The translations under genes and the position numbers were made by a program. From Ostreococcus lucimarinus (taxonomy: Eukaryota), in the NCBI GenBank assembly GCA_000092065.1, contig CP000583.1: a DNA stretch of 64,000 bases; one strand, written 5' to 3'. The notes under the pieces were generated by a model that was not told the origin of the DNA, searched no databases, and saw only the letters and a program-made list of their open reading frames with translations. Each line of letters starts with the position of its first letter. Position 1 is the stretch's first letter. Shown one piece after another: positions 8,899 to 24,587 of this stretch.

Positions 8899-11800
8899 TC
8901 ACAGCTTGAGCCTATCGCGAATGAGTTCAGCGATGGAGTCCTCTCCGGGACCGATATCCTTGAAGGCGTCGAGAACTTCAACGATGACGTCTTGGCGGCG
9001 CTTCCACTTCGGGCTTCCCTTGTTCACACCCGTGGTGCTGAAGGTGCGCAAGACATCCACAGCGGCGGATGGCGTGAGCCCAGTCAAGAGAGTCGCGGCG
9101 AGTTTCACATCAGGTTCGGGTTTGTCTTCCGGCTTCTCCACGCCCGGGCGCGCGCCGAACCCGAGGCTCGCACGGCGAACAATGCTCACTTGTTCTTCAA
9201 TCTCCAATCCAGCATAAATAACCTTCGCAGTCTTGACGTTGCGGTTTGCAACGACGCGGAGGATTTCGACCCCGTTGTACACAACGCTTCGCAGGTAGTA
9301 CGGAAGGACGAATTCAGCGACACCAACCATGCGACCGGGCTCGGACATGTTAACCAAACCGATGGCGGCTTCGGCGTCTCCAAGGTTCTCCACCATAATG
9401 TCAATCAACGTCGCAGCACGGGTCAAATCGAGACCCATGAGCGCTTCAGCGCCTCGGGTATCTTTTGCGCGCCACAAAGCAGCTAGGGCTGTCGCCGCAG
9501 CTTCCACGTTGGCTGCTCCTTGAAGGATCAACGTTGCGGCGATCGGATCTTCGTCTTCAGAGAGCTCGAGGACAACCTCTTCGATTTCCTCCTTGGATGC
9601 GCTCTTTTCAAGTCGCTTTTGCAAACGAGATGCACGCTCATCGGTGACTTCGTTGTCCGGCTTTGACGCGGCTTCAGCTTGTTCGGCCGCGCGCTCCGCG
9701 GCGGCTGCAGCGTCCGCCTTTGCCTTTGCCTCAGCGGCTACGGCTTCCGCCTTTGCCTTGGCCTGTGCATCCGCCTTGGTCTTGGCCTGTGCATCCGCCT
9801 TTGCCTTGGCCTCTGCATCCGCCTTTGCCTTGGCCTCTGCATCCGCCTTTGCCTTGGCCTCTGCATCCGCCTTTGCCTTGGCCTCTGCCTCTGCCTTGGC
9901 GTCCGCCTTGGCTTTGGCCTCTGCCTCTGCCTTGGCTTTGGCCTCTGCCTCTGCCTTGGCCTTGGCGTCCGCCTTGGCTTTGGCCTCGGCATCCGCCTTT
10001 GCCTTGGCTTCAGCATCCGCCTTTGCCTTAGCCGCCTTCGCCTCTTCTTCAGCCTTACGCTTCGCTAATTCGGCTTCCTTTCGCTTCGCTTCCTCAGCAG
10101 CCTTCTGAGCTTTCGCAGCCTCCTCCTGCGCCTTGGCTTCCGCCTTGCGACGTTCTTCCGCCTCCTTCTCAGCGCGACGCTTCGCCTCGGCAGCCTCCTT
10201 CTCAGCTTGCTTTCTCTTCTCTTCTTGTTCCTTCTCGAGACGCTTCTTCTCCTCCTCAGCTCGTTTGGCAGCCGCCTTAGCGTCCTCGTCAGCTTTTTTC
10301 TTGGCGCGCGCAGCTTCCTCCTCAGCTTGCTTGGCCTTTGCCGCAGCTTCCTTCTCAGCTTGTTCTTTGGCGCGGCGCTGCTCTTCAGCTTGACGCTTCA
10401 AGTCTTCTGCTTGCTTTTTGGAGTCCTTCTTCGCTGCTTCAGCCGCCTTGCGACGGCTTTCCTCTTCGTCGAGGGCCAATTGCTTGCGTCTTTCCGAAGC
10501 AGCCACGCGCTCGGCCTCCGCCGCTGCAGTTGCAATTCGTAACTCCTCCGCGCGTTCAGCAGCTGCGACGGCTTCAAGACGACGGGATTCTTCGAAGCTG
10601 ATCGTCGAAGATTCTTTGAACAAAACGCCCTCAGTTTCGGTCTGGTTGAAAAATCTACGAGTGTCCTCGTCTTGTCTAGCGGCCCACTCTGAATCTCTCC
10701 TGCTCAAAGTTTCTGCGTTCCATGCAAGACGTCGAGCATCAATTTCAGCGATGATGGCGGCGAGCTCGGCTTCGAGCTGCTTGATACGCATCTCAGCCAC
10801 CTTTCTACGGGCGTCTTCCTCTTCACGTAGAGCTCGCTCGGCACGAACAGCTGCGTCAGCTTCCGCGCAGACAGCAGCGTGACGTCCATCTTCATTGTGA
10901 GTTCTAGTCTGCTCCTCCGTCACGGTGCGTTCAATGGACATCTGGGACTGAGCACGGCGCGCCTTAAACTCTTCGTAGTTGGCCGCTGCAGTCTTTTCGA
11001 GAGCTTGCAATTCGGGAATGAGGATTTGAAGTTGCGACTCCATCTGCGTAATAGTAGCGTTGAGATTCTGCATCATGTTGTCGATAGCAATAGGCGAAGC
11101 AGCGGCAAGTCGCCGCGCATCTTCCTTACGTTGTCTCTCCTCCATCATCTTCCTGAACTCGGCGCGACGAGCTTCCTCGGCGTTGAACAAAGCCTTGATC
11201 TTCGCCGCAAAGTCGTCAATCTCTTTCTGCTTGCGCTCGCACTGCGCGTCAAAATCAGCTCTTCGTTGTTTCTCAGCGGCCTCCTTTTGCGCGATGGCGT
11301 CGGCAGCTTGCTTACGGCGCATCTCCTCTTGAGTCTGTAAGAACTCCTCCTTGGCTTCAAGTTCCGCTCGGAACTTGTCGAGAATGTCCGGCAGTTCATC
11401 ACGGAATCGGTCGCGTCTAGCGTCCTCTTTCGCGATAATATCGTCGTCGATGGCCTTTTGATCGGCAATCTTCTTGTCCATCGCCTTGCGTCGGGCTTCT
11501 TCTTCGGCACGGCGCATGGCTTCGTCGCGCACAAGCTTCTTGAGCTCTTCACGCATTTGCAGCAGCTTGGCGTCTTCTCTCAGGCGCTCGGCCGCATCTT
11601 CCGCGCGAAGACGTTCATCTTCGGCTATAGCTTCTTCACGAGACTTTCTGAACTCCGTGACTCTTTGCGCTTCAGCCTCAAGTGCAGCCTTGGCGGCGGC
11701 ATCAGCTTCGCGTCGACGACGTTCCAAGTCGCGAATGAAATCGTCAATTTCTTGACGCTTTCTGGACACCTCATTCGCATGATCTTCACGTCTGCGTTCT

Positions 11801-14800
11801 TCCTGAGCGCGGAGATCTTCTTCAGCTCTTTGTTTTGCTTGGAGTTCAGCCTTGAAAGCTTCACGACGAGCAAGCTCGGAGGCCCACGCAGCGTCTTCGT
11901 CGGAGCGCATCTTTGTAATGCGTTCTTCCTCGGCGTTGCGACGAGCGTCTTCCTCGGCCATCTTCTTTCTCTCGGCTTCCGCAGCAGCACGAATAACATC
12001 TTCCGCTTCTTTAGCTCTAGCATCTTCTCTGGCGCGACGAGCTTGTTCTTCTGCGTCGCGACGCGCTTGTTCGCGATCCCAATCGGCACGGCGTTGATCT
12101 TCACGAGCTCGAGTGCGTGCCTCGTCTTCTTCGCGACGACGAAGCTCGTCAGCTGCGCGGGCTCGGCGATTCTCCTCCGCAACGATAGCACGCTCGAGCG
12201 CTTCTTTTCGCGTGCGACTCTCGCCTTCTTGCGCGCGACGTTTATTCTCGGCCTCCATACGTAACCGTTGCTCTTGTTGCTCCATGTCCCGCAACTTTTG
12301 CTCTGCGGCGACGCGACGGCGATTTTCAGCTTCCACTCTTTCGGCTTCCTTGCGCACAGCCTCGGCAGCAGCAGCATCGGCTTCACGTCGACGGCGCTCT
12401 TCCTCTTCACGCTTTCTACGCTCTGCTTCAGCAGCAGCCAAAAGGTCTTGCTTGGCTTGTTTACGTCTCGCTTCTTCCGCTTCACGTTGAAGCTGTTCCT
12501 TCGTCTTGAATTCATCCTTGTTGATGATGAAATCGATGCGACGAGAATCTTCAGAAGTGCGTCGCAGACCTTCTTGGGAATTGAAAATCAAATTCGCCTT
12601 GTCTTGTTCTTGCTGACGACGTGTTTCTTCTTCCTTCTTAGCCGCTTCTTCTCGAGCAAGTTCTTCTTCATGACGCTTATTTTCGGCACGACGTTGATCC
12701 TCTTCGGCACGAAGTCGGTTTTCAGCTTCTCGCGCAGCTCGAGCGGCATCGTCGTAAGCACGTCGACGCGCATCTTCGGCTTCTCTTTTGCGGCGTTCAG
12801 CATCCTCAGCGGCCTCAGCTTGCGCCTCGACACGAGCGCGCCGTTGATCTTCATCAGCAATTTTGCGCTTTTCAGCCTCTTCGAGGATCTTGATTTCTTC
12901 AAGTCGAGATTTGTGGTTGGCCTCAGCAGTGGCGATGCGTCGCACCTCTTCAGCGTTGATTCGAGCGATCTCTTGAGCATACTTTTGCCGTCGGTTTTCT
13001 TCCGTATCCTTAAGACGAATACCAAGCTGCTTGAACTCTTCAAGGGCTCGACGCTTAGCGGCGAGATCATCGTCCTCTGCCTTTCGCCGATCGCCTTCTG
13101 CCTTTGCAGCGGCTCGCATCGCAGCTTGCGCGTTCGCGGCGCGAATTTCTTCAGCCTTAAGCGCAGCTTCGATGTCTTGCTTTCTGCGATCAGCGTCATT
13201 TTCGGCAGCGATGCGTCGATCTTTTGTATCGCGTTCGAACTTGACAATCGCTTCCCGGAGAGCGTTGATGGCAGCTTCGGCTTCGCGGCGGCGCTTGTCC
13301 TCGTCGTCGCGACGCTTTGCCTCGTCATCCTCCATTTGTAGAAGCTTACGCGCAGCATCATCACGACGACGTTCCTCCGCAGCTTGACGATCGGCTTCTT
13401 CGCGTTCAAGACGCGCACGTTCATCATCAACTGCGCGTCTGATGTCTTCACGAGCCTGCTCTCGCCGGGTATCCTCCGTTTCCTGGAGACGCCTCTCTTC
13501 TTCAAGCTCACGCGCGTGTTCGTCATCCCACGCTCGTCGTCGAGCTTCTTCAGCGGAACGATCGGCGGCGAGAGCATCTCGCATACGTTGAATTCGAGCC
13601 TCAGCTTCCGCACGACGCCGATTTTCTTCATCTTGCAAACGAGCCTCCTTCTCCAAAAGAGATCGCGTCTCGGTGTCGAATCTTGCTCGAAGATCGGCCT
13701 CGAGTCCCTTCGCCTTCTCAAAGTTATTCTTCGCCAAGTTGATATCTTGTTCACCTTGCGCGCGGCGTAGTTGAATAGAGTTGCGAAGGGCATCGATTTC
13801 CTTTCGGCGGCGTTCGATTTCTTCGCGCAATTTCGCGACTGAAACGGGTGCGCCATCATCGCCACCCATGAGGTCCTCGAGGTCACCCTTTTGTGTCTCA
13901 GTGATGACCTTAGTCGTGATGATCTCTTCCGAGTAAATGGCTTCACATTCGTCGTACAGCCTATCGATCCTCTCCTTCTCGAGTCGACGACGTCTGTTCT
14001 CTTTACGCCGCTCGTTGTTTTCATCCTCGACAGCCTTTCGAAGAGCCTCCTCGGCTTCCTTGCGGCGTCTATCTTCCTCCTTGCGAAGTTTACGCTCGCG
14101 AGCATCGATTTCGTCGTGGTATTCCTCGTCCGGCAATTCTTCACGCCTACGGGCGAGACGCGTGTTCACCTTCTCTCGCGTCGTGATTATCGTCTTCTTC
14201 GTTCGTCCATCAAAGCTGTACGCTACCGATGTTGTGACGGTGCCTGCGGCGTCTCCGATGGATGCCGCGACTTCACCGAGCCTCACCGGCTTCATCTCAA
14301 GCAAGTGAATGAAGAGATAGACGATGAAAGCAATCGCAGCACCGATAATACTTGCGTACTCCATGTTCACTACGTACGTGTAGAACGCGCCAGAACCCGA
14401 GAAGGCACCGGCTTCGATCAAATAGGAAACACCAGAAATGAGTGAAAGCAAGTTGGGCGCCGCCGCGACGGCAATGGCAATCATGGCGCGTGGATTCACG
14501 CCCTTAAAGAACCAATATGGACCCTTAGTATCGCGCGTCTGCATTGCTCGTCGCGATAATTTGCCAGCACGCATAAGCCAGAAGTCACACAAAATCACAC
14601 CGAGCACGGGAGAGACTAACAACGAACCAACGCCAATGATCCACGAGGCAGCGGCGACGACTTGTTGCCACATCAACTGAGCCGGCGCAAAGAGGCCGAC
14701 AGCGCAGGTGATGATGAGCGCTGCTTGCTTGGACGAGATCGTACCACCAAGATAGTTCTTGGTCTTTGCCCACGGAAGCGAGAATTCTTGCATATACTCC

Positions 14801-15783
14801 TGCGGACCAACGACGTTTGCGGCACTGTTCGTCACGAGCGAGGCGATGGCAATGGACGCAAATAAAATCGGCTTCGGCGCTTGCGCCATGGCCGCGGCGA
14901 CGATAGCAAACAAACCGGACAGCAAGGGAAGCCAGAAAAACTGACCAATAGGTGCAGTTCTAGAGCCCTTGATGTGCGCTGTGTAATCTGGATACACGCT
15001 CGCGAGCGTCACCCAAACGCCCACCATAAGCCAAGCGTGCTTCCAGAACTCGTTCGGCAAGGCGCCCGGCATACCCGCGGAAATCAACGAACCGATCGCG
15101 GTCTGAGGAATACCTTGACGCAAAGTCCAAGCGATGAAACCTGCCACGAGCGCTAAGACGGTCTGACCAGACGCGAGAAGTCTCGATGAAGGGACGGTGC
15201 GCAAGGAAATTGCGAGCTGCACCACCCAAAACATCGCGTACGACATCGCTCGCACGACTACATCGCTTTCGATACTCGCGGCGATAAACGTCGTTTTGAA
15301 CAATCCGAACACCGCTTCGCCCCCGACCAAAGTTTGCACGGCGTAGAGCAAGAATCCAAGCGTCGCGCGACAGGCGTCGGTGAACTCCGCCCCCCAAATC
15401 CCGAAACTCGAACGCGCCAGGATCGGCATATTCAGTTCGTACTTCGCCGCGGGGTATCCGATTGCAGAGATAAATGGCATCGCCATCAAAGTACCGAGCG
15501 CTGTCGCCAAACCGAGTTCATACCAGAGCAACGGCGCGAGCGTGTGCAAGTTCCACCGAACGAAACCGTACGGCACCGAATACATCACCGCGCACGTCGC
15601 CAGCGCCGCCCACAGCGAGAGTTCCTTGCCCTTCTCGATCGCATTCTCCTCCGTCGTCGGCGGGATGATCAAATCCTCGTCCCCAGGCGCGACGATGAAC
15701 CCTTCGTCATCCTTATCGTCGTCGCCGGTTTGATCGGCGTACCCCAATCCGACGGCGTTCGCGCGCGTCGACGCCTCCCTCAT
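8899..15783 (-). CDS. giant multi-domain protein: N-terminal NCS1-family permease-like 12-TM domain, about 1,600-aa E/R/K-rich charged coiled coil (single alpha helix-like), (AKAKADAEA)n repeat, C-terminal helical domain
   Basis: Single stop-free track ORF 8899..16101 (2400 aa) with coding-like composition throughout. I choose ATG at 15783 (MREASTRANAVGLGYADQTGDDD...). The membrane domain contains NMPILARSSFGIWGA, reminiscent of the LARSSFGI(Y/F)GS motif of Fur4/Dal4-type NCS1 permeases. The middle is RRKEAEDARRRAYDD...-type E/R/K repeats. The KA repeat lies at about 9740-10030. Confidence 0.55.
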   Translation of the reverse strand: MREASTRANAVGLGYADQTGDDDKDDEGFIVAPGDEDLIIPPTTEENAIEKGKELSLWAALATCAVMYSVPYGFVRWNLHTLAPLLWYELGLATALGTLMAMPFISAIGYPAAKYELNMPILARSSFGIWGAEFTDACRATLGFLLYAVQTLVGGEAVFGLFKTTFIAASIESDVVVRAMSYAMFWVVQLAISLRTVPSSRLLASGQTVLALVAGFIAWTLRQGIPQTAIGSLISAGMPGALPNEFWKHAWLMVGVWVTLASVYPDYTAHIKGSRTAPIGQFFWLPLLSGLFAIVAAAMAQAPKPILFASIAIASLVTNSAANVVGPQEYMQEFSLPWAKTKNYLGGTISSKQAALIITCAVGLFAPAQLMWQQVVAAASWIIGVGSLLVSPVLGVILCDFWLMRAGKLSRRAMQTRDTKGPYWFFKGVNPRAMIAIAVAAAPNLLSLISGVSYLIEAGAFSGSGAFYTYVVNMEYASIIGAAIAFIVYLFIHLLEMKPVRLGEVAASIGDAAGTVTTSVAYSFDGRTKKTIITTREKVNTRLARRREELPDEEYHDEIDARERKLRKEEDRRRKEAEEALRKAVEDENNERRKENRRRRLEKERIDRLYDECEAIYSEEIITTKVITETQKGDLEDLMGGDDGAPVSVAKLREEIERRRKEIDALRNSIQLRRAQGEQDINLAKNNFEKAKGLEADLRARFDTETRSLLEKEARLQDEENRRRAEAEARIQRMRDALAADRSAEEARRRAWDDEHARELEEERRLQETEDTRREQAREDIRRAVDDERARLEREEADRQAAEERRRDDAARKLLQMEDDEAKRRDDEDKRRREAEAAINALREAIVKFERDTKDRRIAAENDADRRKQDIEAALKAEEIRAANAQAAMRAAAKAEGDRRKAEDDDLAAKRRALEEFKQLGIRLKDTEENRRQKYAQEIARINAEEVRRIATAEANHKSRLEEIKILEEAEKRKIADEDQRRARVEAQAEAAEDAERRKREAEDARRRAYDDAARAAREAENRLRAEEDQRRAENKRHEEELAREEAAKKEEETRRQQEQDKANLIFNSQEGLRRTSEDSRRIDFIINKDEFKTKEQLQREAEEARRKQAKQDLLAAAEAERRKREEEERRRREADAAAAEAVRKEAERVEAENRRRVAAEQKLRDMEQQEQRLRMEAENKRRAQEGESRTRKEALERAIVAEENRRARAADELRRREEDEARTRAREDQRRADWDREQARRDAEEQARRAREDARAKEAEDVIRAAAEAERKKMAEEDARRNAEEERITKMRSDEDAAWASELARREAFKAELQAKQRAEEDLRAQEERRREDHANEVSRKRQEIDDFIRDLERRRREADAAAKAALEAEAQRVTEFRKSREEAIAEDERLRAEDAAERLREDAKLLQMREELKKLVRDEAMRRAEEEARRKAMDKKIADQKAIDDDIIAKEDARRDRFRDELPDILDKFRAELEAKEEFLQTQEEMRRKQAADAIAQKEAAEKQRRADFDAQCERKQKEIDDFAAKIKALFNAEEARRAEFRKMMEERQRKEDARRLAAASPIAIDNMMQNLNATITQMESQLQILIPELQALEKTAAANYEEFKARRAQSQMSIERTVTEEQTRTHNEDGRHAAVCAEADAAVRAERALREEEDARRKVAEMRIKQLEAELAAIIAEIDARRLAWNAETLSRRDSEWAARQDEDTRRFFNQTETEGVLFKESSTISFEESRRLEAVAAAERAEELRIATAAAEAERVAASERRKQLALDEEESRRKAAEAAKKDSKKQAEDLKRQAEEQRRAKEQAEKEAAAKAKQAEEEAARAKKKADEDAKAAAKRAEEEKKRLEKEQEEKRKQAEKEAAEAKRRAEKEAEERRKAEAKAQEEAAKAQKAAEEAKRKEAELAKRKAEEEAKAAKAKADAEAKAKADAEAKAKADAKAKAEAEAKAKAEAEAKAKADAKAEAEAKAKADAEAKAKADAEAKAKADAEAKAKADAQAKTKADAQAKAKAEAVAAEAKAKADAAAAAERAAEQAEAASKPDNEVTDERASRLQKRLEKSASKEEIEEVVLELSEDEDPIAATLILQGAANVEAAATALAALWRAKDTRGAEALMGLDLTRAATLIDIMVENLGDAEAAIGLVNMSEPGRMVGVAEFVLPYYLRSVVYNGVEILRVVANRNVKTAKVIYAGLEIEEQVSIVRRASLGFGARPGVEKPEDKPEPDVKLAATLLTGLTPSAAVDVLRTFSTTGVNKGSPKWKRRQDVIVEVLDAFKDIGPGEDSIAELIRDRLKL
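9738..10030 (-). repeat. in-frame coding tandem repeat (27-nt period) encoding (A-K-A-K-A-D-A-E-A)n inside the giant protein
   Basis: Visible as gcctttgccttggcctctgcatccgcc units on the plus strand. Antisense track ORFs 9593..10108, 9663..10031 and 9679..10068 are artefacts of this repeat. Confidence 0.85.
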
Positions 15784-16171
15784 CCCCACGCCTCGCCTTC
15801 GCGTCCCACCCGCGCACGCGGCCTCCCACGCCAATCCACATCGTTTCTTTCCTCCACCGACCACGCGCGCGACGACCGTCGCGCCCCGCGCGCGCGCCCC
15901 GCCCCCCGCCGTTGCCGCATGCGATTGCCCAACGATTGATTTCGCAAATGTCCCGATCGACCCCGCCCGTCGCCCGCTCTCGCGCGCGCCGCTCCGCCGC
16001 TCCGCCGCCGCGCTCGCGGCGGCGCGCAGCGCCATTCGCGCTCGCGCTCGCGACGACTCGCGCGTCCGCGCCACGCACGTCCGCGCGCGCGGCGTTCTCA
16101 CGCGCGCGAAGAGCGAGCGAATTTAAGGGATCGTCGACGAAGATACGACGTCGCGGCGGTTCGCGCGCGTC

Positions 16172-16877: not shown

Positions 16878-18131
16878 CTAAGCCCCAATCTTTCCCTTGT
16901 AAAGATCGAGGAAAACATCCGCACCCCACACGGGTGATCCATTCGCACCCGTATCGAGTTTTGCGAGGTCCGAACCCATCGTCATCGCGGCATCTAAAGA
17001 ATCGGGATCGCCGGCTTGGTCGGGCGACAGCAAGAGCGCCGTCAAGCCGACGATGATGAAAATCGGCGCCGCGATGGCGCTCGCCAGCACGGCGTAAATC
17101 ACCGATACGTATTCTTGCTTGGACAACACCGAGGTGGTGTCTCCCATCTGTCGCTGAAAGCTTTGCCATTCGAGCTCGATGAGAACGTCCAGGAACCAAG
17201 ACGTTTCATTTTTCCCCGGCGGCGAGAGAGTGTTGTAAAACATGTTCACCGCCGTTTCTTCCGCTAGTTGCTCCCACTCCGCTTCCTCTTCTTCGGGCGT
17301 CTCGGGGAAGAAGTCGTCTCCAGATTGACTTCCAGGCTCGGGATCGGTGCGAAAATCAATCCTGTCCAAGCGACTGGCGATGAGGCCGTCCCTGTTCACC
17401 TTGTATGTCGTTCTCCCAAAGAGTCGGAAATTCAAGTCGGTTCTGGGTTCCTTCCCGTCCGCCACCGTCGCCGTCGCCGGGTATCCCGGTGCAACCTTCT
17501 CCCCGTACTCACCTTCCACGATCCTGCGAACTGCGCCTTCGTGCATGGAACCGAGCAAGAGATTACTAAACTTCTTGCCAAATCGCGCGCCCTCCCACAC
17601 CGCCGTCCACTGAATGAGCAACACCCCCGGCTCGATCGAGCTCGCTCTTCGCGTGACAAACTTGAACCCCTTCAACGCCGACTTCGTCGCATCGCTAAAG
17701 TGTTCCATGAGCTCTCGATACTCGTCCAATCCGCGCACGGCGTGCACGTCGTTGTCGTACTCGACGTTCGCCGCGAACGCCTCCCGCCCGAGCTCGCGCA
17801 GAAACGGATCTCTCTCGAACCCCTCGCGCAATCTTTGCGTCACCGCGATCTGCCGTTCCAACGACGATCCTTCTTTCGACGATCGCGCGGACGTCGACGC
17901 GCGATCACCTCCCCGGTCGCGCTCGCTCGCGGCGTTTCCCTCGCGATCGTCCCGCTCGCCCGCCGTCCCGCTCGCCGAGCTCTCGCGGCGAACCCTCCGC
18001 CTTCGCGCGTCGTCGCCTCGCATCGCGCGCGCGACGCGCGCGTTCGCGAGCGTTCGCGTCGCCCGCGTCGCGCGCGCGCGTCGCGCGACGCGCGCGGTCG
18101 TCGCCGCGGGCGCCGCGTTCGTCGCGCGCAT
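16878..18131 (-). CDS. hypothetical single-pass membrane protein (TM helix SVIYAVLASAIAAPIFIIVGLTALLL near the C-terminus)
   Basis: Track ORF 16878..18320. Coding-like composition begins about 17880, with an R/A-rich N-terminus upstream. ATG at 18131 (cat at 18129-18131 checked); alternative MRGDD... further downstream. I recognised no family. Confidence 0.4.
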   Translation of the reverse strand: MRATNAAPAATTARVARRARATRATRTLANARVARAMRGDDARRRRVRRESSASGTAGERDDREGNAASERDRGGDRASTSARSSKEGSSLERQIAVTQRLREGFERDPFLRELGREAFAANVEYDNDVHAVRGLDEYRELMEHFSDATKSALKGFKFVTRRASSIEPGVLLIQWTAVWEGARFGKKFSNLLLGSMHEGAVRRIVEGEYGEKVAPGYPATATVADGKEPRTDLNFRLFGRTTYKVNRDGLIASRLDRIDFRTDPEPGSQSGDDFFPETPEEEEAEWEQLAEETAVNMFYNTLSPPGKNETSWFLDVLIELEWQSFQRQMGDTTSVLSKQEYVSVIYAVLASAIAAPIFIIVGLTALLLSPDQAGDPDSLDAAMTMGSDLAKLDTGANGSPVWGADVFLDLYKGKIGA

Positions 18132-18422
18132 GTCGTTATGCCGACCGCGACGGCGTCGGGGCGCGCCTCCGCGCGAACGGCGCGCAAACAGTCGGGCGCG
18201 CGCGCGCGGATTTATGATTTCCACGCGCGCGCGGCGCGTCATCGACGTTTGAATCGCCGAATGCGAAAGAAATGAAAATCGGCGAGAAAATCGATGCGCG
18301 CCGAATGTCCGAACGTACAATTAGGGCTTTCCGACGAGGGCTTTGCGATCGCGCGCGGCGCGCGATCCGTCTCTCCGCGACGCCGTCGACGCCTCGCGCG
18401 CGCACACACGAACGCGAACACG

Positions 18423-19295
18423 ATGGCTCCTCAAATGTCCCAAAAAGAGGCCGACATCGCGATGATGCTCGCCGCCGGGTGCCACCTCGGGACGAAGAAC
18501 GTGGACTTCCAAATGGAGCGCTACGTGTGGAAGCGACGGGCCGACGGGATCCACATCATCAACCTCGGACGGACGTGGGATAAGCTCATGCTCGCCGCGC
18601 GCATCATCGTTGCGTGCGAAAACCCGCAGGATGTGATCTGCCAAGCGGCGCGCCCGTACGGTCAACGCGCGGTGTTGAAGTTTGCGCAATACACCGGTGC
18701 GAAAGCCATCGCGGGTCGTCACACGCCGGGGACGTACACGAACCAAAAGGACGCGATTTTCGCGGAACCGCGCGTGTTGATCGTCACCGATCCGCGCACG
18801 GATGCGCAGCCTATTTCTGAGACCGCGTACGTCAACTTGCCGACGATTGCGTTCTGCGACACGGATTCTCCGTTGAAGAACGTCGACGTCGCCATTCCGG
18901 CGAACAACAAGGCGAAGCACTCGATCGGTTGCTTGTACTACTTGCTCGCGCGCATGGTTTTGCAAATGCGAGGCACGGTCTCCGCGGCGAACCCGTGGGA
19001 CGTGATGGTGGATTTGTTCTTCTACCGCGATCCGGAGGAGCTCGAGGCCAAGGAAGAGGAAGCCGCCGCCGCGGCGGCGGCTCCGGCGGAATCCGCGGGT
19101 TACAACGCCGTTGCGGACGCCGCGTACGGCGCCGAGTCTTGGGACGAGCAAAAGCCGGCCGAGGCGTTCCCGACGGGTGGTTTCGCTCCGGCTGCGGGTA
19201 ACTGGTCCGAGGCGCCCGCGCCCACGGGCTGGGATGCTCAGCAAGGTGGTGACTTTGGCTCTGGCTTTGGCGCGATGCCGCCGCAAGGCTACTAA
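18423..19295 (+). CDS. RPSA: 40S ribosomal protein SA (uS2 / laminin-receptor-like)
   Basis: [55 protein letters not shown]...[31 protein letters not shown]... is a near-textbook uS2 sequence. ATG at 18423 and stop TAA at 19293-19295. Confidence 0.95.
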
Positions 19296-19538
19296 GTCTT
19301 CGTTTGAATGCGAAAGTCATTCTTTCGGTGAAGCGCGCCGTCGTCTCGACGGCGACGCGCGGCACACGAGCTCGTTTGGTTGGTGATACACGCGGCATCT
19401 AATTTCTAGGCGGCGGAATAGCCAGCGCGAGCTAACATAACACGTTTTTGTAGTACGAACGTAGTTTTCTTCACAACGACGTCCCTCGCCGACGCGCCGA
19501 CTCTAATCGATCGCTAACCGATCTCTACCCACACAAAC

Positions 19539-19964
19539 CTACCCTCGCTCGTTCACCGACCGCGCGATATCCGCGATCGCCACGTCGAACAACTCACACC
19601 GCACCGGCATCTCCACCTCGTAAAACGGATTCTTCAGCGCGTAGTCGCAGTACGCCCGGTGCGTCCTTCGCAGCGTCCCGCTCGCGTCCGCGCTCCCTTT
19701 CGTCATCGTCACGAATATCTTCATCCCCGTCTCCGCTTGAAAGCAATACAAATCAAACGTATCGCACTCCAGGCTCTCTATCCCCGCGCACCCCGTCACC
19801 GGCGCCACCTTCCTCGAGATCGCGTGCAGCGAGTGCCACACGCTCGCCAGGCGCAGGCACGCGTTCGCGTCCAGCGTCGGCGCGTCCTCGCGCAGCGCGC
19901 GGTGATAGATCAGTCCCCCGGACTTGTTCACGAGCCACACCGCGAGGAGCTTCCCGGTCGCCAT
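19539..19964 (-). CDS. TRAPP complex subunit, sybindin-like family (Bet5/TRAPPC1-type)
   Basis: MATGKLLAVWLVNKSGGLIYHR...FQAETGMKIFVTMTKGS...YALKNPFYEVEMPVRCELFDVAIADI matches the longin-like Bet5/TRAPPC1 pattern. ATG at 19964 checked. The upstream part of track ORF 19539..20105 is GC-rich. Confidence 0.7.
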   Translation of the reverse strand: MATGKLLAVWLVNKSGGLIYHRALREDAPTLDANACLRLASVWHSLHAISRKVAPVTGCAGIESLECDTFDLYCFQAETGMKIFVTMTKGSADASGTLRRTHRAYCDYALKNPFYEVEMPVRCELFDVAIADIARSVNERG

Positions 19965-20236
19965 CGGTCCGCGCGCCGTCGTCGAGCGCGTCGCGCGCGC
20001 GTCGCGCGCTGGGGCGACCGCGGCGACCGACCGCGAATCCGCGCGGATCCGCGGCGCGCGAAAAACCCGCGTGTGCGCCGCCGTCGACGGCGACGGTTGC
20101 CACACGCGCGCGCGACGAGGCGCGACGACGCGCGAGCGACGACGCGCGGGCGAACGCGATGACGGGCGCGATCGATGCGATGACGCGAGCGACGGCGCGC
20201 GCGGTGACGCCGACGACGGGAAGCGCGACGCGAAGG

Positions 20237-21439
20237 ATGCGATCGGGACGCGCGATGCGCTTTTTGAATCGACCGCGCGACGACGCGGGCGCGAACGAGA
20301 CGCGAGGAGGGCGCGCGGTGGCGCGCGCGGGCGCGAGACCGGGCGCGGGGAATCGGTTGTATAACTTTTCGGCGGGACCGGCGACGCTGCCGTTGGACGT
20401 GCTCGAGGAGATTCAACGGGACTTGGTCGATTATAAGGGCAGCGGGATGAGCGTGCTGGAGATGTCGCATCGAGGGAAGGATTACATGGCGATCGCGGAG
20501 AAGGCGGAGAAGGATCTGCGAGAGTTGGTTGGAATTCCTGATAACTATAAGGTGCTGTTTTTGCAAGGCGGGGCGTCGACGATGATGGCGTCTAACTGCC
20601 ATAACTTGGCGGCGGCGACGGACAGCGCGGATTTCGTCGTCACCGGGGCGTGGAGCGTCAAGGCGCAAAAAGAAGGGGCGAAGATGCTCGCGAAGGCGAA
20701 TGTGATCGCGTCGTCTAAGGATCAGTCGTTCACGACGATTCCGGACGTTAAGGACTGGAAATTCACCGAAGGATCCAAGTTTGTCCACATCTGCTCCAAC
20801 GAAACCATCGGCGGCGTCGAGTTCAAGGAAGTCCCGGACGTGGGCAACCGCGTGCTCGTCGCGGACATGTCTTCCAACTACTTGTCCAAGCCGATTGAAG
20901 TTGAAAAGTACGGTATCATTTACGGTGGCGTGCAAAAGAACATCGGTCCGGCGGGCATGGGTATCGCCATCGTTCGCGAAGATTTGATGGGCAACACTCG
21001 CGCGGATACCCCGTCCATGTTCGATTACAAGCTCATGGCTGACAACGACTCCATGTACAACACCCCGCCGTGCTTTACGTGGTACGTCTCTGGTCTCGTC
21101 TTCGCCAAGCTTCTCAAGGATGGTGGTCTCAAGGCGATGGAGCAGCGCAACATCGAAAAGGCGAATGTTTTGTACGGCGCCATCGACGGGAGCGGCGGCT
21201 ACTACGTCTCCCCGGTTGACACCAAGTACCGTTCCTTGATGAACGTCCCTTTCACCTTGGCAGGAGGTGAAGAATTGGAAAAGAAGTTCCTCGCCGAAGC
21301 CAAGGCTGAGGGCTTCGAGGCGCTCAAGGGTCACCGCTCCGTTGGAGGCGCGCGCGCGTCCATTTACAACGCCATGCCCAAGGAAGGCGTCGAAGCGCTC
21401 GTGTCCTTCATGAAGGATTTCCAAGCTCGCAACGCGTGA
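20237..21439 (+). CDS. PSAT: phosphoserine aminotransferase (SerC, class V aminotransferase)
   Basis: The NFSAGPATLPLDVLEEIQRDLVDYKGSGMSVLEMSHRGKDYMAIAEKAEKDLRELVGIPDNYKVLFLQGGAS... core is diagnostic. Track ORF begins 20159. The N-terminal approximately 60 aa are GC-rich and transit-peptide-like. ATGs at 20159, 20237 and 20255 are all in frame, so the start is uncertain. Confidence 0.9.
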   Translation: MRSGRAMRFLNRPRDDAGANETRGGRAVARAGARPGAGNRLYNFSAGPATLPLDVLEEIQRDLVDYKGSGMSVLEMSHRGKDYMAIAEKAEKDLRELVGIPDNYKVLFLQGGASTMMASNCHNLAAATDSADFVVTGAWSVKAQKEGAKMLAKANVIASSKDQSFTTIPDVKDWKFTEGSKFVHICSNETIGGVEFKEVPDVGNRVLVADMSSNYLSKPIEVEKYGIIYGGVQKNIGPAGMGIAIVREDLMGNTRADTPSMFDYKLMADNDSMYNTPPCFTWYVSGLVFAKLLKDGGLKAMEQRNIEKANVLYGAIDGSGGYYVSPVDTKYRSLMNVPFTLAGGEELEKKFLAEAKAEGFEALKGHRSVGGARASIYNAMPKEGVEALVSFMKDFQARNA

Positions 21440-21471
21440 TTTACGAAGGATGAAATTTTGCTACAGATTAT

Positions 21472-22587
21472 CTAATACAACGCATCTACTTTAGTGCCAC
21501 GCACCCACCACGGTTCGAACGCTCGAATGATCGTGCCGCTCGGGCCGAGCGCGCAGTCGCGCTTGATGTGCATCTCTGAGGCTTGCAAACCGAGATATTC
21601 GCTCGGTTTCTGCACCCTCACCTCGCCATCGTCGCCCGGAGCGCGGTACAGCGTCTCACCTACCAAAGGAGCACTCAAAGCCGCGAATTGCGCGCGAATT
21701 TGATGCGTTCGTCCGGTTAAGAGTTCCACCTTTGTCTCCCATCGCGCCGGGGCGATGTTTTCGCTCTTCAACACTCGCAAAATACAGCGCTTCGGCCCAC
21801 TCACGCCTCCCCGCTCGCCACCACCGCGTTCTGCCGATCGTTCTATTTCACCATCGATGTCGTCGGTGTCGACCTTCGTCATGATCATCTTTCGCGGACC
21901 CTCGGTCGCCGGCTCGGCGTCGTGGATGTGAACGCCGCGAGGCACGGCGTTCTCCGTCAGCACGCGATACACCTTGGTGACGCTCCTGTCCGCCAACATA
22001 TCACCGAACTCCTTCGCAAAGGCACTCGTCGTACCGAGCACTAAAACCCCTTCCGTGCCGACGTCCAAGCGATGAATCGGCTTTAATGTTCCCTCCTTCA
22101 GACCCGCGGCGCGTTCGAGCATCGCCAGACACGATTCCTTGACGTTATCGACCGTCGGCACCACGCTCACGCCCGCCGGTTTATGCGCACAAACGTACCC
22201 CTCACCCACTTTCAACACGCACGCCTTCCAATCGACCGCGAACGCCGCCGGAAACCGCTTCGGTTGCACGTGAACGCGAAGATAGTTGCCCGCCCGCAGC
22301 GGCGCATCCGCGTCGCGAGGCGACAACCGCCTCGCGCGCGCCGTTCTCGGCACCCCTCTCAGTTCCCTCGGCGGCTGCGCCGTCGCGAACCACACCGCAC
22401 CGATGTCCAACAACTCTTCGGCGTACGTCTCGTCCACGCCCTCGTCCCCGAGCGTCTTCGCGAGGTATTTCGTCACCGTCAGCGCCGTCCCGGTCCCGCC
22501 GTCGTCGTCCACGACCAGGTGCGCCACTTTCGCCGGCAGAGGCTCGGCGAGAGGAAACAACCGCAGCGCGCACGCGCGCGCCGACAT
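21472..22587 (-). CDS. RluA-family pseudouridine synthase (bacterial-type rRNA/tRNA pseudouridine synthase)
   Basis: Catalytic motif IHRLDVGTEGVLVLGTT. ATG at 22587 (MSARACALRLFPLAEPLPAKV...; cat at 22585-22587 checked). I counted 371 aa to the stop at 21472. Confidence 0.8.
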   Translation of the reverse strand: MSARACALRLFPLAEPLPAKVAHLVVDDDGGTGTALTVTKYLAKTLGDEGVDETYAEELLDIGAVWFATAQPPRELRGVPRTARARRLSPRDADAPLRAGNYLRVHVQPKRFPAAFAVDWKACVLKVGEGYVCAHKPAGVSVVPTVDNVKESCLAMLERAAGLKEGTLKPIHRLDVGTEGVLVLGTTSAFAKEFGDMLADRSVTKVYRVLTENAVPRGVHIHDAEPATEGPRKMIMTKVDTDDIDGEIERSAERGGGERGGVSGPKRCILRVLKSENIAPARWETKVELLTGRTHQIRAQFAALSAPLVGETLYRAPGDDGEVRVQKPSEYLGLQASEMHIKRDCALGPSGTIIRAFEPWWVRGTKVDALY

Positions 22588-22746
22588 CGTCGCCCTCGAC
22601 GCGCGTCGCAAAGCCACCGTCGCGCGTCGCAAGGCCAGCGCGATGCGCATGGGACAAAAAGTGCTTTTCCGCAAATGTTCGCGCGCGCGAATGACGCGCT
22701 GACGCGAGCGCCGCCGGCGCGAAAGCGCGTCGAACGATGCGTGACG
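22588..22746. promoter_or_regulatory. 159-bp bidirectional promoter between the RluA-type pseudouridine synthase (-) and the RsmE methyltransferase (+)
   Basis: Start codons at 22587 (minus) and 22747 (plus) face outward. Confidence 0.55.
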
Positions 22747-23580
22747 ATGCGTAATCGCATTCTCTTCGAGCGCGCCGAGATCGACGCCCGAACGCGGACG
22801 GTGACGCTGCGCGCGGACGACGCGCGCGCGACGCACGCGCGAGAGGTGCTGCGAAGCGACGTCGGCGACCACGTGCGCGCGGGAACGATCGACGTCGGCG
22901 CGTGCGAGGCGACGATCGCGACGATGGATGATGATGAAATCGTGCTGAAGCTCGGAGACGACGCGCGCGGACGCGGGAGGCCGGAGATCGACTTGTTGCT
23001 CGCGACGCCGCGGCCTAAAGTTTTGAGGCGGCTGTGGGCGCCGCTCGCGTCGCTGGGCCTCGGTCGTGTCGTGCTGGCGAACGCGCAAAAGGTGGAGCGA
23101 TATTACTTTGATAGTAAAGCGTTGGACGCAGAGACGATTCGTGGGGAGATATTGCGCGGTTTGGAGCAGGCGGGGGATTTTTTGGTGCCGCAAGTGGGCG
23201 TGGCGATGCGGTTGCCGCCGGTCGTGGACCGGTTGAAGGGCGCTTTGGGGAATTCGAGCGTCACGAATGGGTTCGAGTGGTTGTTGGATGGACCACGTGA
23301 GCTCGGTTGGGATGAGTTCGACGCGGCCGATGTGCGCTTGCTGGCGCATCCAGGGGATTCTGGGACGAGCGTGGCGGAAGCGTTGGAGGGCGTCGACGCG
23401 CGGCGCTCGCGCGTGCTCATCGCCGTCGGACCCGAGGGCGGATGGACGGATTATGAGCTCGATTTATTCGAGGGCGCCGGGTTCAAGCGCGTTGGCCTAG
23501 GAACGAGAACATTTACCACGGACGTGGCGTGTATCTCGCTCGTGAGCGCGGTTCGAGAGCGGTTGCAGTCGTGGTCGTGA
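22747..23580 (+). CDS. RsmE-family 16S rRNA (uracil-N3)-methyltransferase (DUF558)
   Basis: MRNRILFERAEIDARTRTVTLRADDARATHAREVLR...RVLIAVGPEGGWTDYELDLFEGAGFKRVGLGTRTFTTDVACISLVSAV is the RsmE architecture. ATG at 22747 and TGA at 23578-23580. The upstream part of track ORF 22183.. is antisense to the neighbouring gene. Confidence 0.8.
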   Translation: MRNRILFERAEIDARTRTVTLRADDARATHAREVLRSDVGDHVRAGTIDVGACEATIATMDDDEIVLKLGDDARGRGRPEIDLLLATPRPKVLRRLWAPLASLGLGRVVLANAQKVERYYFDSKALDAETIRGEILRGLEQAGDFLVPQVGVAMRLPPVVDRLKGALGNSSVTNGFEWLLDGPRELGWDEFDAADVRLLAHPGDSGTSVAEALEGVDARRSRVLIAVGPEGGWTDYELDLFEGAGFKRVGLGTRTFTTDVACISLVSAVRERLQSWS

Positions 23581-23624
23581 AATGACTAGAATTGACGACT
23601 ACAAATTAGATAGCGCACTTAGGC

Positions 23625-24380
23625 TTAGGACATCGAAAAGACGATGTACAGCGTGTAAAGCATCATGCAAGGATACGTCACGATCATGCGTTTGCCCTCC
23701 GACTGCGGCATCGCCTGTATCAACCCCACGCTCGCCTTTCTCGAGCTCCACGTCACGCAGAGCACCGCGAGCGCCTTGCTCAACATCCCAGTTTTCGAAG
23801 GTAAAAACAGCACGATCCCACTGTACCCCACCACGGGCAGCAGCGCGTAGCCTAAAATACTCCCGCACCGGTTCAACCCGATCCCTTCCCCTCCGCCGAT
23901 GATTTGGTTCAACAACCAGTACATCCCGAGCGACGCGAGCGTGCTCCAACCCAAAATGTACCCAAAGTGCAACTTCCCCGCCAGTAAGTTACACGCGCCC
24001 ATGACGAGACAAAACAACAGCGGTCCCGCGAGATCTTCATCCGTGCTATCCTCGACCCTGAACGGATGCATCACACCCATCGTCCGACGATAAATCTGCT
24101 TCGGATCCACGCCGAGTTCCTCGAGCAACGGCACCTCGTCCTCGACGTGCGCGTACGACCCTCCCACGTCGCCGTCGCGCGCCCCGAACCCGAACCCACC
24201 GCCCTGGTGTCCCGAGCCGTGTCCACCACCCCCCCCGTACCCGTGCGAGCCCGAACTCGTCGCTCGCGGCGCGTACGCGTCGTAGTTCGGGTACGCCTGC
24301 GCGCGATTAAAATCCATAAACTGCATGTTCGCGTTCGCGCCCTGCGCGCCCTGCGGCATCGGTCGCGGTATGTCCGCCAT
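23625..24380 (-). CDS. Yip1-domain Rab-GTPase-interacting membrane protein (YIPF5/Yip1-like)
   Basis: Gly-rich N-terminus followed by DEVPLLEELGVDPKQIYRRTMGVMHPFR...DLAGPLLFCLVMGACNLLAGKLHFGYILGWSTLASLGMYWLLN...VTYPCMMLYTLYIVF, which aligns with YIPF5 along its length. ATG at 24380 (MADIPRPMPQG...) checked. Confidence 0.8.
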   Translation of the reverse strand: MADIPRPMPQGAQGANANMQFMDFNRAQAYPNYDAYAPRATSSGSHGYGGGGGHGSGHQGGGFGFGARDGDVGGSYAHVEDEVPLLEELGVDPKQIYRRTMGVMHPFRVEDSTDEDLAGPLLFCLVMGACNLLAGKLHFGYILGWSTLASLGMYWLLNQIIGGGEGIGLNRCGSILGYALLPVVGYSGIVLFLPSKTGMLSKALAVLCVTWSSRKASVGLIQAMPQSEGKRMIVTYPCMMLYTLYIVFSMS

Positions 24381-24587
24381 ATCTCGCCGTTCCGTCGCGC
24401 GCGCGTCCGCGTCGCCCGAGACGCGCGTCGCGGTCGCCCGTCGCGCGTCGCGGTGCGTCGCCAACGGGACGCGGCGCGCGCGTCTCGGGCGACGCGAGTC
24501 TCACACACGGACCACGACGCCCGCGACCGCGCGCGGTCTCCTCGCGACCCGCGCGCGCGTTCTCTTCGCGACGCGCGCGACGCGAAC

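What the first reader, a model, noticed from the sequence alone, without database searches (positions are those of the whole stretch)
21472..23580. Head-to-head pair of bacterial-type rRNA-modification enzymes (RluA-family pseudouridine synthase and RsmE m3U methyltransferase) sharing a 159-bp bidirectional promoter
Both proteins belong to bacterial families, with the HRLD catalytic motif in one and the DUF558/RsmE fold in the other. In eukaryotes such enzymes serve organellar ribosomes. Their divergent arrangement with start codons 159 bp apart suggests co-regulated expression of an organelle-ribosome maturation module. Conserved divergent pairing of two functionally linked nuclear genes is uncommon and worth testing across related genomes.
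Basis: partly seen in the sequence, partly recalled or inferred. Interest (0 to 1): 0.55.

Follow-up and report, generated by a model that had tools for sequence, protein, structure and literature searches.

The report
Neighbouring organelle RNA-modification genes in Ostreococcus
Two ordinary nuclear genes for bacterial-type RNA-modifying enzymes, most likely imported into an organelle, sit back-to-back in the very compact genome of the green alga Ostreococcus lucimarinus; the arrangement is shared with its closest relatives but looks like a by-product of genome compaction and local gene-order conservation rather than a special regulatory module.

Summary
The window is Ostreococcus lucimarinus nuclear DNA. 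It carries an RluA-family pseudouridine synthase (minus strand, HRLD motif) head-to-head with an RsmE methyltransferase (plus strand).

The 159-bp "bidirectional promoter" does not hold. Comparison with about ten related lineages shows both proteins start at upstream ATGs (22650 and 22675). These add short Arg/Ala/Ser/Thr-rich N-terminal extensions that bacterial homologues lack. Only 24 bp separate the start codons.

The synthase is the orthologue of plant "RNA pseudouridine synthase 6, chloroplastic" (AT4G21770). RsmE corresponds to the enzyme expected to make m3U1498 in organellar 16S rRNA.

The pairing is conserved in every Ostreococcus lineage sampled and in Bathycoccus prasinos, always inside the block Yip1–RsmE–PUS6–PSAT–sybindin. 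Micromonas-like contigs keep that block without RsmE, and Micromonas commoda carries RsmE elsewhere. A Trebouxia genome lacks the pairing, as do 80 bacterial rsmE loci.

Local genes alternate strand, with tiny spacers throughout, so divergent pairs are the norm here. A short GTGCAC–T-run element conserved in the Ostreococcus spacers is the only hint of shared regulation. Co-expression was not testable.

Verdict: ordinary, lineage-specific synteny; low interest.

The parts
21472..22650 (-). CDS of an RluA-family pseudouridine synthase (392 aa from ATG 22650; 371 aa if ATG 22587 is used). It is the orthologue of plant PUS6 / AT4G21770.
   Evidence: PF00849 at E 2e-29. It matches green-lineage homologues, including plant proteins, whose nearest relatives are named 'RNA pseudouridine synthase 6, chloroplastic' / AT4G21770. 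The AlphaFold model has pLDDT 83.4. The best full-length structural matches are RluD and mitoribosomal large-subunit assembly-factor PUS proteins.
22531..22650 (-). N-terminal extension of the synthase (about 40 aa, MRIALALRRATVALRRASRATMSARACALRLFPLAEPLPAK). It is a putative organelle-targeting presequence.
   Evidence: It has 9 R+K, 1 D+E and 11 Ala. An extension is present in all lineages but its sequence is not conserved. Residues 1-40 have low pLDDT and lie outside the fold. The upstream Met is the only Met in group B contig L022.
22063..22074 (-). HRLD catalytic motif (H193-D196) of the synthase.
   Evidence: H193 and D196 are invariant in a 19-sequence alignment.
22651..22674 (.). 24-bp spacer between the two likely start codons (GGGACAAAAAGTGCTTTTCCGCAA on the + strand).
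   Evidence: Homologous spacers are 23-65 bp in Ostreococcus and 72-141 bp in Bathycoccus-like loci.
22656..22668 (.). Near-palindromic element AAAAAGTGCTTTT, related to GTGCAC plus a T run. It is a candidate shared cis-element.
   Evidence: GCAC(N0-1)TTTT is present, in either orientation, in five of the six distinct Ostreococcus spacers examined, representing all four deep groups. The closely related contig L021 has GCGCTTTTT instead. The pattern is rare elsewhere in the window: 4 matches against about 2 expected.
22675..23580 (+). CDS of an RsmE-family SPOUT methyltransferase (301 aa from ATG 22675; 277 aa if ATG 22747 is used).
   Evidence: PF04452 at E 1.4e-21. TIGR00046 scores 60 bits against a cutoff of 41, and NF008700 scores 167 bits. 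PDB RsmE chains are hit.
22675..22746 (+). N-terminal extension of RsmE (MFARANDALTRAPPARKRVERCVT). It is a putative organelle-targeting presequence.
   Evidence: Bacterial RsmE starts at the position of RNRILF. The domain-start Met is missing in Ostreococcus groups C and D, in Bathycoccus-like loci, in L033 and in Micromonas, so an extension of 24-54 aa is obligatory there.
23428..23442 (+). GPEGG loop (G252-G256) of the SPOUT knot region.
   Evidence: It is invariant in the 16-sequence alignment with bacterial RsmE.
20159..21439 (+). Flanking gene: phosphoserine aminotransferase, convergent with the synthase across a 32-bp gap. It is part of the conserved block.
   Evidence: PF00266 at E 2e-47. 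Synteny.
23625..24464 (-). Flanking gene: Yip1-domain protein, convergent with RsmE across a 44-bp gap. It is part of the conserved block.
   Evidence: PF04893. Synteny.

Best explanation
These are two ordinary, independently functioning nuclear genes of Ostreococcus lucimarinus for bacterial-type RNA-modifying enzymes.

- One is the RsmE orthologue. By family, it would methylate N3 of the U1498-equivalent in organellar 16S rRNA helix 44.
- The other is the orthologue of plant PUS6 / AT4G21770. It is an RluA-family pseudouridine synthase with an RluD-like architecture. Its substrate is unknown, and by analogy it is more likely large-subunit rRNA.

Both are translated from upstream ATGs (22650 and 22675). 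These add short basic presequences for import into an organelle, probably the chloroplast.

The head-to-head adjacency arose through a single-gene relocation of RsmE. Either RsmE was inserted between Yip1 and PUS6 in the common ancestor of Ostreococcus and Bathycoccus, or it was removed from that position in the Micromonas lineage. The adjacency has since persisted as part of a collinear five-gene block in a genome where almost every gene abuts its neighbour.

With 24 bp between the start codons, the two promoters and 5' ends necessarily interdigitate. Some shared regulation is therefore likely for physical reasons, but there is no evidence that the pairing is selected for.

Shown: gene identities, extensions, spacer length and synteny pattern. 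Inferred: targeting, substrates, direction of the relocation and promoter sharing.
For: - Organism: exact protein matches to O. lucimarinus CCE9901 XP_001416979.1 and XP_001416693.1.
- Families.
- Start codons and extensions. The B. prasinos NCBI models equal the upstream starts. The AlphaFold model leaves residues 1-40 outside the fold.
- Plant orthologue naming. AT4G21770 = AtRLUA3 with a predicted chloroplast location (PMC8910892).
- m3U at the 1498-equivalent position has been detected in Arabidopsis chloroplast 16S rRNA, with AT1G50000 as the putative RsmE (bioRxiv 10.1101/2024.06.14.598963).
- Synteny: Yip1(+)-RsmE(-)-PUS6(+)-PSAT(-)-sybindin(+) is found in every Ostreococcus locus examined (about 16 loci of four deep groups) and in six Bathycoccus-like loci. 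L032 is B. prasinos.
- Micromonas-like contigs: L017 and L029 have Yip1 directly upstream of PUS6 with no RsmE. L028 has Yip1 about 4 kb upstream with no RsmE. Other contigs keep PUS6-PSAT-sybindin without RsmE.
- M. commoda RsmE lies between other genes, and the synthase near it is a different paralogue.
- Compaction: intergenic regions are under 200 bp in Ostreococcus (PMC2850359). Ostreococcus-Bathycoccus collinearity is generally better than collinearity with Micromonas (PMC3491373).
Against: - No targeting predictor or localisation data could be applied.
- A UniRef entry attributed to Ostreococcus (A0A7S0KIV8) for group D starts at the downstream Met of the synthase. Its provenance was not established. 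If it derives from a transcript, that mRNA may start downstream of the upstream ATG.
- A short motif is conserved in otherwise unalignable spacers. Some selection therefore acts on the shared region, which could reflect functional co-regulation.
- Both modifications could lie near the same ribosomal site (h44 and H69, bridge B2a) if PUS6 is RluD-like. That would make a functional link less accidental.
- The direction of the relocation is not polarised, because no outgroup is available.
Confidence: 0.7

Rival explanations
1. The pair is a selectively maintained, co-regulated module. A shared bidirectional promoter element in the short spacer co-expresses two enzymes that mature the same functional centre of the organellar ribosome. 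RsmE would act on h44 U1498 and an RluD-like PUS6 on H69. These two helices together form bridge B2a.
For: - The pairing is conserved from Ostreococcus to Bathycoccus, although both proteins have diverged to about 35% identity.
- The GTGCAC/T-run footprint is conserved in the Ostreococcus spacers and is rare elsewhere in the window.
- The best full-length structural matches of PUS6 are RluD and mitoribosomal large-subunit assembly factors.
- The h44-H69 bridge carries m3U1498 and pseudouridines at 1911/1915/1917.
Against: - The whole five-gene block is conserved, not the pair specifically.
- Micromonas keeps the block but has RsmE elsewhere.
- Trebouxia lacks the pairing, as do bacterial rsmE loci (0 of 80) and a bacterial homologue locus.
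- AT4G21770 and AT1G50000 lie on different Arabidopsis chromosomes, by their locus codes.
- Published footprinting work suggests few bidirectional regulatory elements in Ostreococcus (cited in PMC2850359).
- The PUS6 substrate is unknown.
Confidence: 0.15
2. Translation starts at 22587 and 22747, leaving a 159-bp non-coding bidirectional promoter and proteins without presequences.
For: - Both downstream Mets exist in O. lucimarinus.
- The RsmE downstream Met aligns with the bacterial start.
- A UniRef Ostreococcus entry for the synthase in group D starts at the downstream Met.
- Some metagenome gene calls use these starts.
Against: - The downstream RsmE Met is replaced by Ala or Lys in Ostreococcus groups C and D and in Bathycoccus-like loci, and by Cys in Micromonas. 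The synthase downstream Met is missing in group B contig L022.
- Between the window and a 94%-identical relative, the 24-bp spacer carries indels while the flanking 'extension' segments carry none.
- RsmE has no known substrate outside bacterial-type 16S rRNA, so a protein without an import signal would have no target (established family knowledge).
Confidence: 0.08
3. Each gene uses both ATGs, as alternative initiation sites. This would give two isoforms, for example for dual chloroplast and mitochondrial targeting of single-copy enzymes.
For: Paired in-frame Mets 21-24 codons apart occur in both genes of O. lucimarinus. For the synthase they recur in the lucimarinus group and group D, and in contig L014 of group B.
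Against: The second Met is not conserved across lineages. Copy number in the genome was not examined. There are no data on isoforms.
Confidence: 0.07

Closest known systems
Bacterial RsmE (16S rRNA m3U1498 methyltransferase; PUA + SPOUT; e.g. E. coli YggJ, PDB 4j3c, 5vm8, 5o95)
   Same: It has the SPOUT C-terminal domain with the invariant GPEGGW loop and a PUA-like N-terminal region. It is about 42-48% identical to bacterial proteins.
   Different: It is encoded in a eukaryotic nucleus. It has a 24-aa basic N-terminal extension and a Mamiellophyceae-specific insertion (TNGFEWLL...). It scores below NCBIfam equivalog cutoffs (167 against 252 bits). Among the loci returned by a pattern-biased scan, the best bacterial matches were Acidobacteriota and the PVC group.
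Plant RNA pseudouridine synthase 6, chloroplastic (AT4G21770, AtRLUA3)
   Same: It belongs to the same homologous group across the green lineage. Shared motifs are RVHxxPKRFP, DKPAGV, TGRTHQIRAQ and the C-terminal PWW.
   Different: Land-plant members carry HQID where the alga keeps the canonical HRLD (PMC8910892). The algal presequence is much shorter. Neither protein has a known substrate.
E. coli RluD / RluC (S4 domain + RluA-family catalytic domain; 23S rRNA pseudouridine synthases)
   Same: Full-length RluD aligns over about 364-370 columns of the model. The catalytic Asp motif and the TGRxHQIR motif are shared.
   Different: Sequence identity is only about 15-20%. No Pfam S4 hit was found. 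TIGR00005 scores 79 bits against a cutoff of 193. Target specificity cannot be inferred.
Bidirectional (head-to-head) gene pairs in compact eukaryotic genomes
   Same: The genes are divergently oriented with a very short spacer, and a short element in that spacer is conserved.
   Different: The ATG-to-ATG distance of 24 bp leaves no room for a discrete intergenic promoter. Co-expression is untested. The pairing is conserved only with its whole neighbourhood.

Membership tests
RsmE family (PF04452 / TIGR00046) | SPOUT alpha/beta-knot methyltransferase domain detected above curated thresholds | tested here: met
   PF04452 scores 77.2 bits against a cutoff of 23.9. TIGR00046 scores 60.1 bits against a cutoff of 41.
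RsmE family (PF04452 / TIGR00046) | N-terminal PUA-like RNA-binding domain | tested here: inconclusive
   PF20260 scores 20.7 bits, just under the 23.9 cutoff. The region aligns with bacterial RsmE N-termini.
RsmE family (PF04452 / TIGR00046) | Conserved cofactor-binding C-terminal segment (GPEGG loop) | tested here: met
   G252-W257 are invariant in the alignment with bacterial RsmE. PMC5699498 describes the conserved C-terminal part as the ligand-binding site.
RsmE family (PF04452 / TIGR00046) | NCBIfam equivalog-level score (same function as bacterial RsmE) | tested here: not met
   The best score is NF008700 at 167.3 bits against a cutoff of 252. This is expected for a diverged eukaryotic copy with an insertion.
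RsmE family (PF04452 / TIGR00046) | Methylates N3 of U1498 of 16S-type rRNA | not testable with these tools
   This needs rRNA modification mapping in a mutant.
RluA family of pseudouridine synthases (PF00849) | PseudoU_synth_2 catalytic domain above threshold | tested here: met
   103.2 bits against a cutoff of 26.8. Foldseek matches RluA, RluC, RluD and RPUSD4 at E 1e-11 to 1e-14.
RluA family of pseudouridine synthases (PF00849) | HRLD motif with the catalytic Asp | tested here: met
   IHRLDVGTEG is present, and H193 and D196 are invariant.
RluA family of pseudouridine synthases (PF00849) | TIGR00005 rluA_subfam score | tested here: not met
   78.9 bits against a cutoff of 192.7.
RluD/RluC-type (S4 + catalytic domain) | N-terminal S4 RNA-binding domain | tested here: inconclusive
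   There is no Pfam S4 hit. The model has a folded alpha/beta region at residues 42-127, and full-length RluD aligns over 364 columns, though with high rmsd.
Plant PUS6 / AT4G21770 orthologous group | Closest plant homologues are PUS6 and share group-specific motifs | tested here: met
   The plant hits of the window protein (P0137, P0139, P0142) retrieve 'RNA pseudouridine synthase 6, chloroplastic' / 'like AT4G21770'. The shared motifs are shown. No full phylogeny was made.
Organelle-imported nuclear-encoded protein | N-terminal extension relative to bacterial homologues that is basic, poor in acidic residues and poorly conserved | tested here: met
   The RsmE extension has 6 R+K and 2 D+E in 25 aa. 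The PUS6 extension has 9 R+K and 1 D+E in 41 aa.
Organelle-imported nuclear-encoded protein | Positive call by a trained targeting predictor, or experimental localisation | not testable with these tools
   No TargetP/PredAlgo-type tool and no localisation data were available.
Bidirectional-promoter gene pair | Head-to-head orientation with a short spacer | tested here: met
   The ATG-to-ATG distance is 24 bp (159 bp with the downstream ATGs).
Bidirectional-promoter gene pair | Shared cis-element in the spacer | tested here: inconclusive
   A GTGCAC/T-run footprint is conserved in the Ostreococcus spacers. Its function is unknown.
Bidirectional-promoter gene pair | Co-expression of the two genes | not testable with these tools
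   No transcriptome data were accessible.
Bidirectional-promoter gene pair | Pairing conserved independently of the surrounding synteny | tested here: not met
   The pair is conserved only inside the five-gene block. It is absent in Micromonas, Trebouxia and bacteria.

The most novel reading that the evidence does not exclude
The RsmE-PUS6 head-to-head pair is a selected regulatory unit of Bathycoccaceae. A roughly 13-bp near-palindromic element in a 24-65-bp spacer would drive overlapping divergent transcripts for two enzymes that modify the two sides of intersubunit bridge B2a (h44 m3U1498 and H69 pseudouridines) of the chloroplast ribosome. This would also assign a substrate to the so far uncharacterised plant PUS6 family.
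Probability: 0.1. Interest if true: 0.45.

Novelty: already known. Interest (0 to 1): 0.2.

Why it matters
The finding matters little as it stands. Both genes are routine orthologues of known families in a published genome, and the Bathycoccus orthologue of RsmE is already named RsmE in NCBI. Their adjacency is explained by compaction and local collinearity.

The work has three modest uses:
- It corrects the likely start codons, and therefore the presequences, of both O. lucimarinus genes.
- It documents a clean single-gene relocation that distinguishes Bathycoccaceae from Micromonas.
- It flags a conserved spacer motif, and an RluD-like architecture for the uncharacterised PUS6 family, that could guide an experiment in the transformable relative O. 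tauri.

Tried and rejected
- **Rfam scan of the window:** no RNA family reached threshold.
- **GC3-based gene map of the whole window, to obtain a background rate of divergent pairs:** too noisy in this high-GC sequence. I used Pfam-supported neighbours instead.
- **Codon-position test of the extensions against a 94%-identical relative:** too few substitutions to be informative.
- **The pseudouridine synthase about 6.5 kb from M. commoda RsmE as a possible remnant of the pair:** rejected, because it is a different paralogue.
- **Bacterial operon origin of the pair:** rejected. None of 80 bacterial rsmE loci has an RluA-type homologue within 3 kb. Among the 67 further loci returned for PUS6 relatives (L034-L100, taxonomy not checked), only the two Bathycoccus-like loci carry RsmE.
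- **The Logan contig carrying the RsmE protein as a possible transcript:** it is a genomic-type contig spanning three genes and is uninformative about transcript ends.
- **The spacer motif as a general promoter element of the window:** not supported.
- **Literature on AT4G21770 / RLUA3:** only a family survey with a predicted chloroplast location, and no functional data.
Full report
**What the window is.** Several ORFs of the window are identical to proteins of Ostreococcus lucimarinus CCE9901, namely XP_001416979.1 and XP_001416693.1. The sequence is therefore nuclear DNA of a picoeukaryotic green alga (Mamiellophyceae, Bathycoccaceae). GC is about 0.60-0.69 except for a lower-GC stretch at 42-50 kb. 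Genes around the finding have typical eukaryotic functions: 40S ribosomal protein SA, a sybindin/TRAPP subunit, phosphoserine aminotransferase and Yip1.

**Checking the observation.** The minus-strand ORF ending at 21472 matches PF00849 (E 2e-29) and contains IHRLDVGTEG. The plus-strand ORF ending at 23580 matches PF04452 (E 1.4e-21), TIGR00046 (above cutoff) and several RsmE equivalog models (best 167 bits, below their cutoffs). It keeps the invariant GPEGGW loop. Sequence searches of the PDB hit RluA and RluD for the first protein and RsmE chains for the second. The two genes are head-to-head. The description is therefore accurate apart from the choice of start codons.

**Start codons and N-terminal extensions.**
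- Each ORF has a further in-frame ATG upstream, at 22650 for the synthase and 22675 for RsmE.
- I recovered the same locus from metagenome and genome contigs. These represent four deep Ostreococcus groups (59-94% protein identity), three Bathycoccus-like lineages, a lower-GC relative (L033) and Micromonas-like lineages.
- In RsmE, the Met at the start of the conserved domain (the window's 22747) is replaced by Ala or Lys in Ostreococcus groups C and D, in all Bathycoccus-like loci and in L033. It is replaced by Cys in Micromonas. In all of these the protein must start 24-54 codons upstream.
- In the synthase, group B contig L022 has only the upstream Met.
- The NCBI models for Bathycoccus prasinos are identical to the upstream-start ORFs I derived from L032. 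These are the 357-aa '16S ribosomal RNA methyltransferase RsmE' and the 418-aa synthase CAL6442827.1.
- Bacterial RsmE begins exactly where the algal RNRILF motif aligns.
- The extensions are variable in sequence and rich in Arg, Ala, Ser and Thr, with few acidic residues.
- In an AlphaFold model of the synthase (mean pLDDT 83.4), residues 1-40 have low confidence and lie outside the fold.
- These are the expected properties of organelle presequences, but no trained predictor was available.
- One counter-hint exists. A UniRef entry attributed to Ostreococcus (A0A7S0KIV8) for group D starts at the downstream Met of the synthase. I could not establish how that entry was derived.
- I put about 0.75-0.9 on the upstream starts in the window.
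- With those starts, only 24 bp (22651-22674) separate the ATGs. The homologous spacers are 23-65 bp in Ostreococcus and 72-141 bp in Bathycoccus-like loci. A discrete 159-bp intergenic promoter is therefore not supported. Promoter elements and 5' ends must overlap the neighbour's coding sequence.

**What the two proteins are.**
- The closest named plant relatives of the synthase are 'RNA pseudouridine synthase 6, chloroplastic' and 'like AT4G21770'.
- A family survey calls AT4G21770 'AtRLUA3' and predicts a chloroplast location. It reports no functional data (PMC8910892).
- Land-plant members carry HQID where the algal proteins keep HRLD.
- Foldseek places the model closest to full-length RluD and to pseudouridine-synthase-like assembly factors of trypanosomatid mitoribosomal large subunits. 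RluA, RluC and RPUSD4 follow.
- This suggests an S4-plus-catalytic-domain architecture and, by analogy only, a large-subunit rRNA substrate.
- RsmE is, by family, the m3U1498 methyltransferase of 16S rRNA.
- The equivalent m3U1447 has been detected in Arabidopsis chloroplast 16S rRNA, with AT1G50000 proposed but uncharacterised as the enzyme (bioRxiv 10.1101/2024.06.14.598963).
- An organellar, probably plastid, role for both proteins is therefore a reasonable inference, not a demonstrated fact.

**Is the pairing conserved?**
- In every Ostreococcus locus and in six Bathycoccus-like loci the order is Yip1(+), RsmE(-), PUS6(+), PSAT(-), sybindin(+). This holds even though RsmE and PUS6 have diverged to about 35% identity between the genera.
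- In Micromonas-like contigs the same block lacks RsmE. In L017 and L029, Yip1 lies directly upstream of PUS6. In L028, Yip1 lies about 4 kb upstream and no RsmE is found. L018, L027, L040 and L051 keep PUS6-PSAT-sybindin with no RsmE in the sequence available.
- In Micromonas commoda and a related metagenome contig, RsmE lies between unrelated genes. The synthase about 6.5 kb away there is a different paralogue.
- In a Trebouxia genome the PUS6 orthologue is flanked by PIH1 and RPL27A genes.
- A bacterial homologue is flanked by TatD and ThiF genes.
- None of 80 bacterial rsmE loci has an RluA-type homologue within 3 kb.
- The Arabidopsis locus codes place the two genes on chromosomes 4 and 1.
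- The pairing is therefore specific to Bathycoccaceae. It differs from the Micromonas arrangement by the relocation of one gene, and it is conserved only together with its whole neighbourhood.
- This fits the published observation that Ostreococcus and Bathycoccus are more collinear with each other than with Micromonas (PMC3491373).

**Is it more than chance?**
- From 16.9 to 24.4 kb, six consecutive genes alternate strand. The divergent spacers are about 51-174 bp (unknown 454-aa gene / RPSA), 194-353 bp (sybindin / PSAT) and 24 bp (PUS6 / RsmE). The convergent gaps are 32 and 44 bp.
- Intergenic regions below 200 bp are the rule in Ostreococcus (PMC2850359).
- A rough estimate of my own follows; it was not computed on the genome. 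With about 7,600 genes and about 40 nuclear genes for organellar RNA modification, about 0.2 adjacent pairs are expected by chance, and several if the class is widened to organellar gene expression.
- The class was defined after seeing the pair, so the adjacency is not statistically compelling.

**A small positive signal.**
- The spacers cannot be aligned between Ostreococcus groups. Even so, GCAC(N0-1)TTTT occurs in one or the other orientation in five of the six distinct spacers examined, representing all four deep groups. Four of them carry the full GTGCAC form.
- The window has AAAAAGTGCTTTT at 22656-22668. The closely related contig L021 has GCGCTTTTT instead.
- The pattern is not a general feature of the window.
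- This is a phylogenetic footprint in the shared 5' region and a candidate common cis-element or initiation site. Its function is unknown.

**Conclusion.** The most likely account (confidence about 0.7) is that these are two ordinary nuclear genes for organelle-imported RNA-modification enzymes. They were brought together by a single relocation and have been kept together by general collinearity in a genome with almost no intergenic DNA. Some promoter sharing is physically unavoidable at 24 bp but is not evidence of a selected module. The more interesting reading is a selected unit co-expressing enzymes for the two sides of bridge B2a. It is not excluded (about 0.1) and could be tested in O. 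tauri. Interest is low.

Noticed in passing
window 39682-51111 (-): A single uninterrupted 3809-aa ORF encodes a UBR4/BIG-like E3 ubiquitin ligase (PF13764, E 4e-248, plus a UBR box). It occupies the only low-GC stretch of the window (GC 0.46-0.51 against 0.60-0.69 elsewhere).
   Followed up: partly
window 8899-16101 (-): A 2400-aa ORF has a cytosine/purine permease domain only at residues 191-566. The remaining ~1800 aa have no Pfam match, and the region shows strong negative AT skew (-0.33 at 10-14 kb). This could be a fusion, a repetitive tail or an over-extended ORF.
   Followed up: no
window 22656-22668; spacers of L022, L014, L024, L026, L010: A conserved GTGCAC + T-run (or A-run + GTGCAC) element lies in the otherwise unalignable 23-65-bp spacers between RsmE and PUS6 across Ostreococcus groups. 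Its orientation is flipped in group B.
   Followed up: partly
window about 23290-23340 (RsmE residues about 206-222); alignment A2: Mamiellophyceae RsmE proteins share an insertion (…TNGFEWLL…) of roughly 25-60 residues that bacterial RsmE lacks.
   Followed up: no
loci L105-L184: Among the bacterial loci returned for the algal RsmE, the best matches are Acidobacteriota, Kiritimatiellia, Lentisphaerae and Verrucomicrobiota (up to about 43% identity). The scan was limited to genomes sharing two peptide patterns, so the origin of the gene is not settled. No named plant RsmE was among the 120 listed hits of the protein search.
   Followed up: partly
alignment A1: Land-plant PUS6 orthologues have THQID where prasinophyte and trebouxiophyte orthologues keep THRLD. 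This matches the 'XXHQID-type' RluA variant noted in PMC8910892. The catalytic Asp is retained.
   Followed up: no
window 16878-24464: Six consecutive genes strictly alternate strand. The convergent stop-to-stop gaps are only 32 bp (PSAT/PUS6) and 44 bp (RsmE/Yip1), so 3' ends must overlap or be extremely short.
   Followed up: partly
L017 6276-7493: In one Micromonas-like contig the PUS6 orthologue goes out of frame near the TGRTHQIR motif, relative to a near-identical protein (P0130). This could be an assembly error or a pseudogene.
   Followed up: no
window 21472-23580: Among the cluster members read, no NCBI protein record from O. lucimarinus was seen for either gene, whereas the neighbouring genes have XP_ accessions. 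The two genes may be missing or modelled differently in the GenBank annotation. Only 40 of about 100 members per cluster were read.
   Followed up: partly
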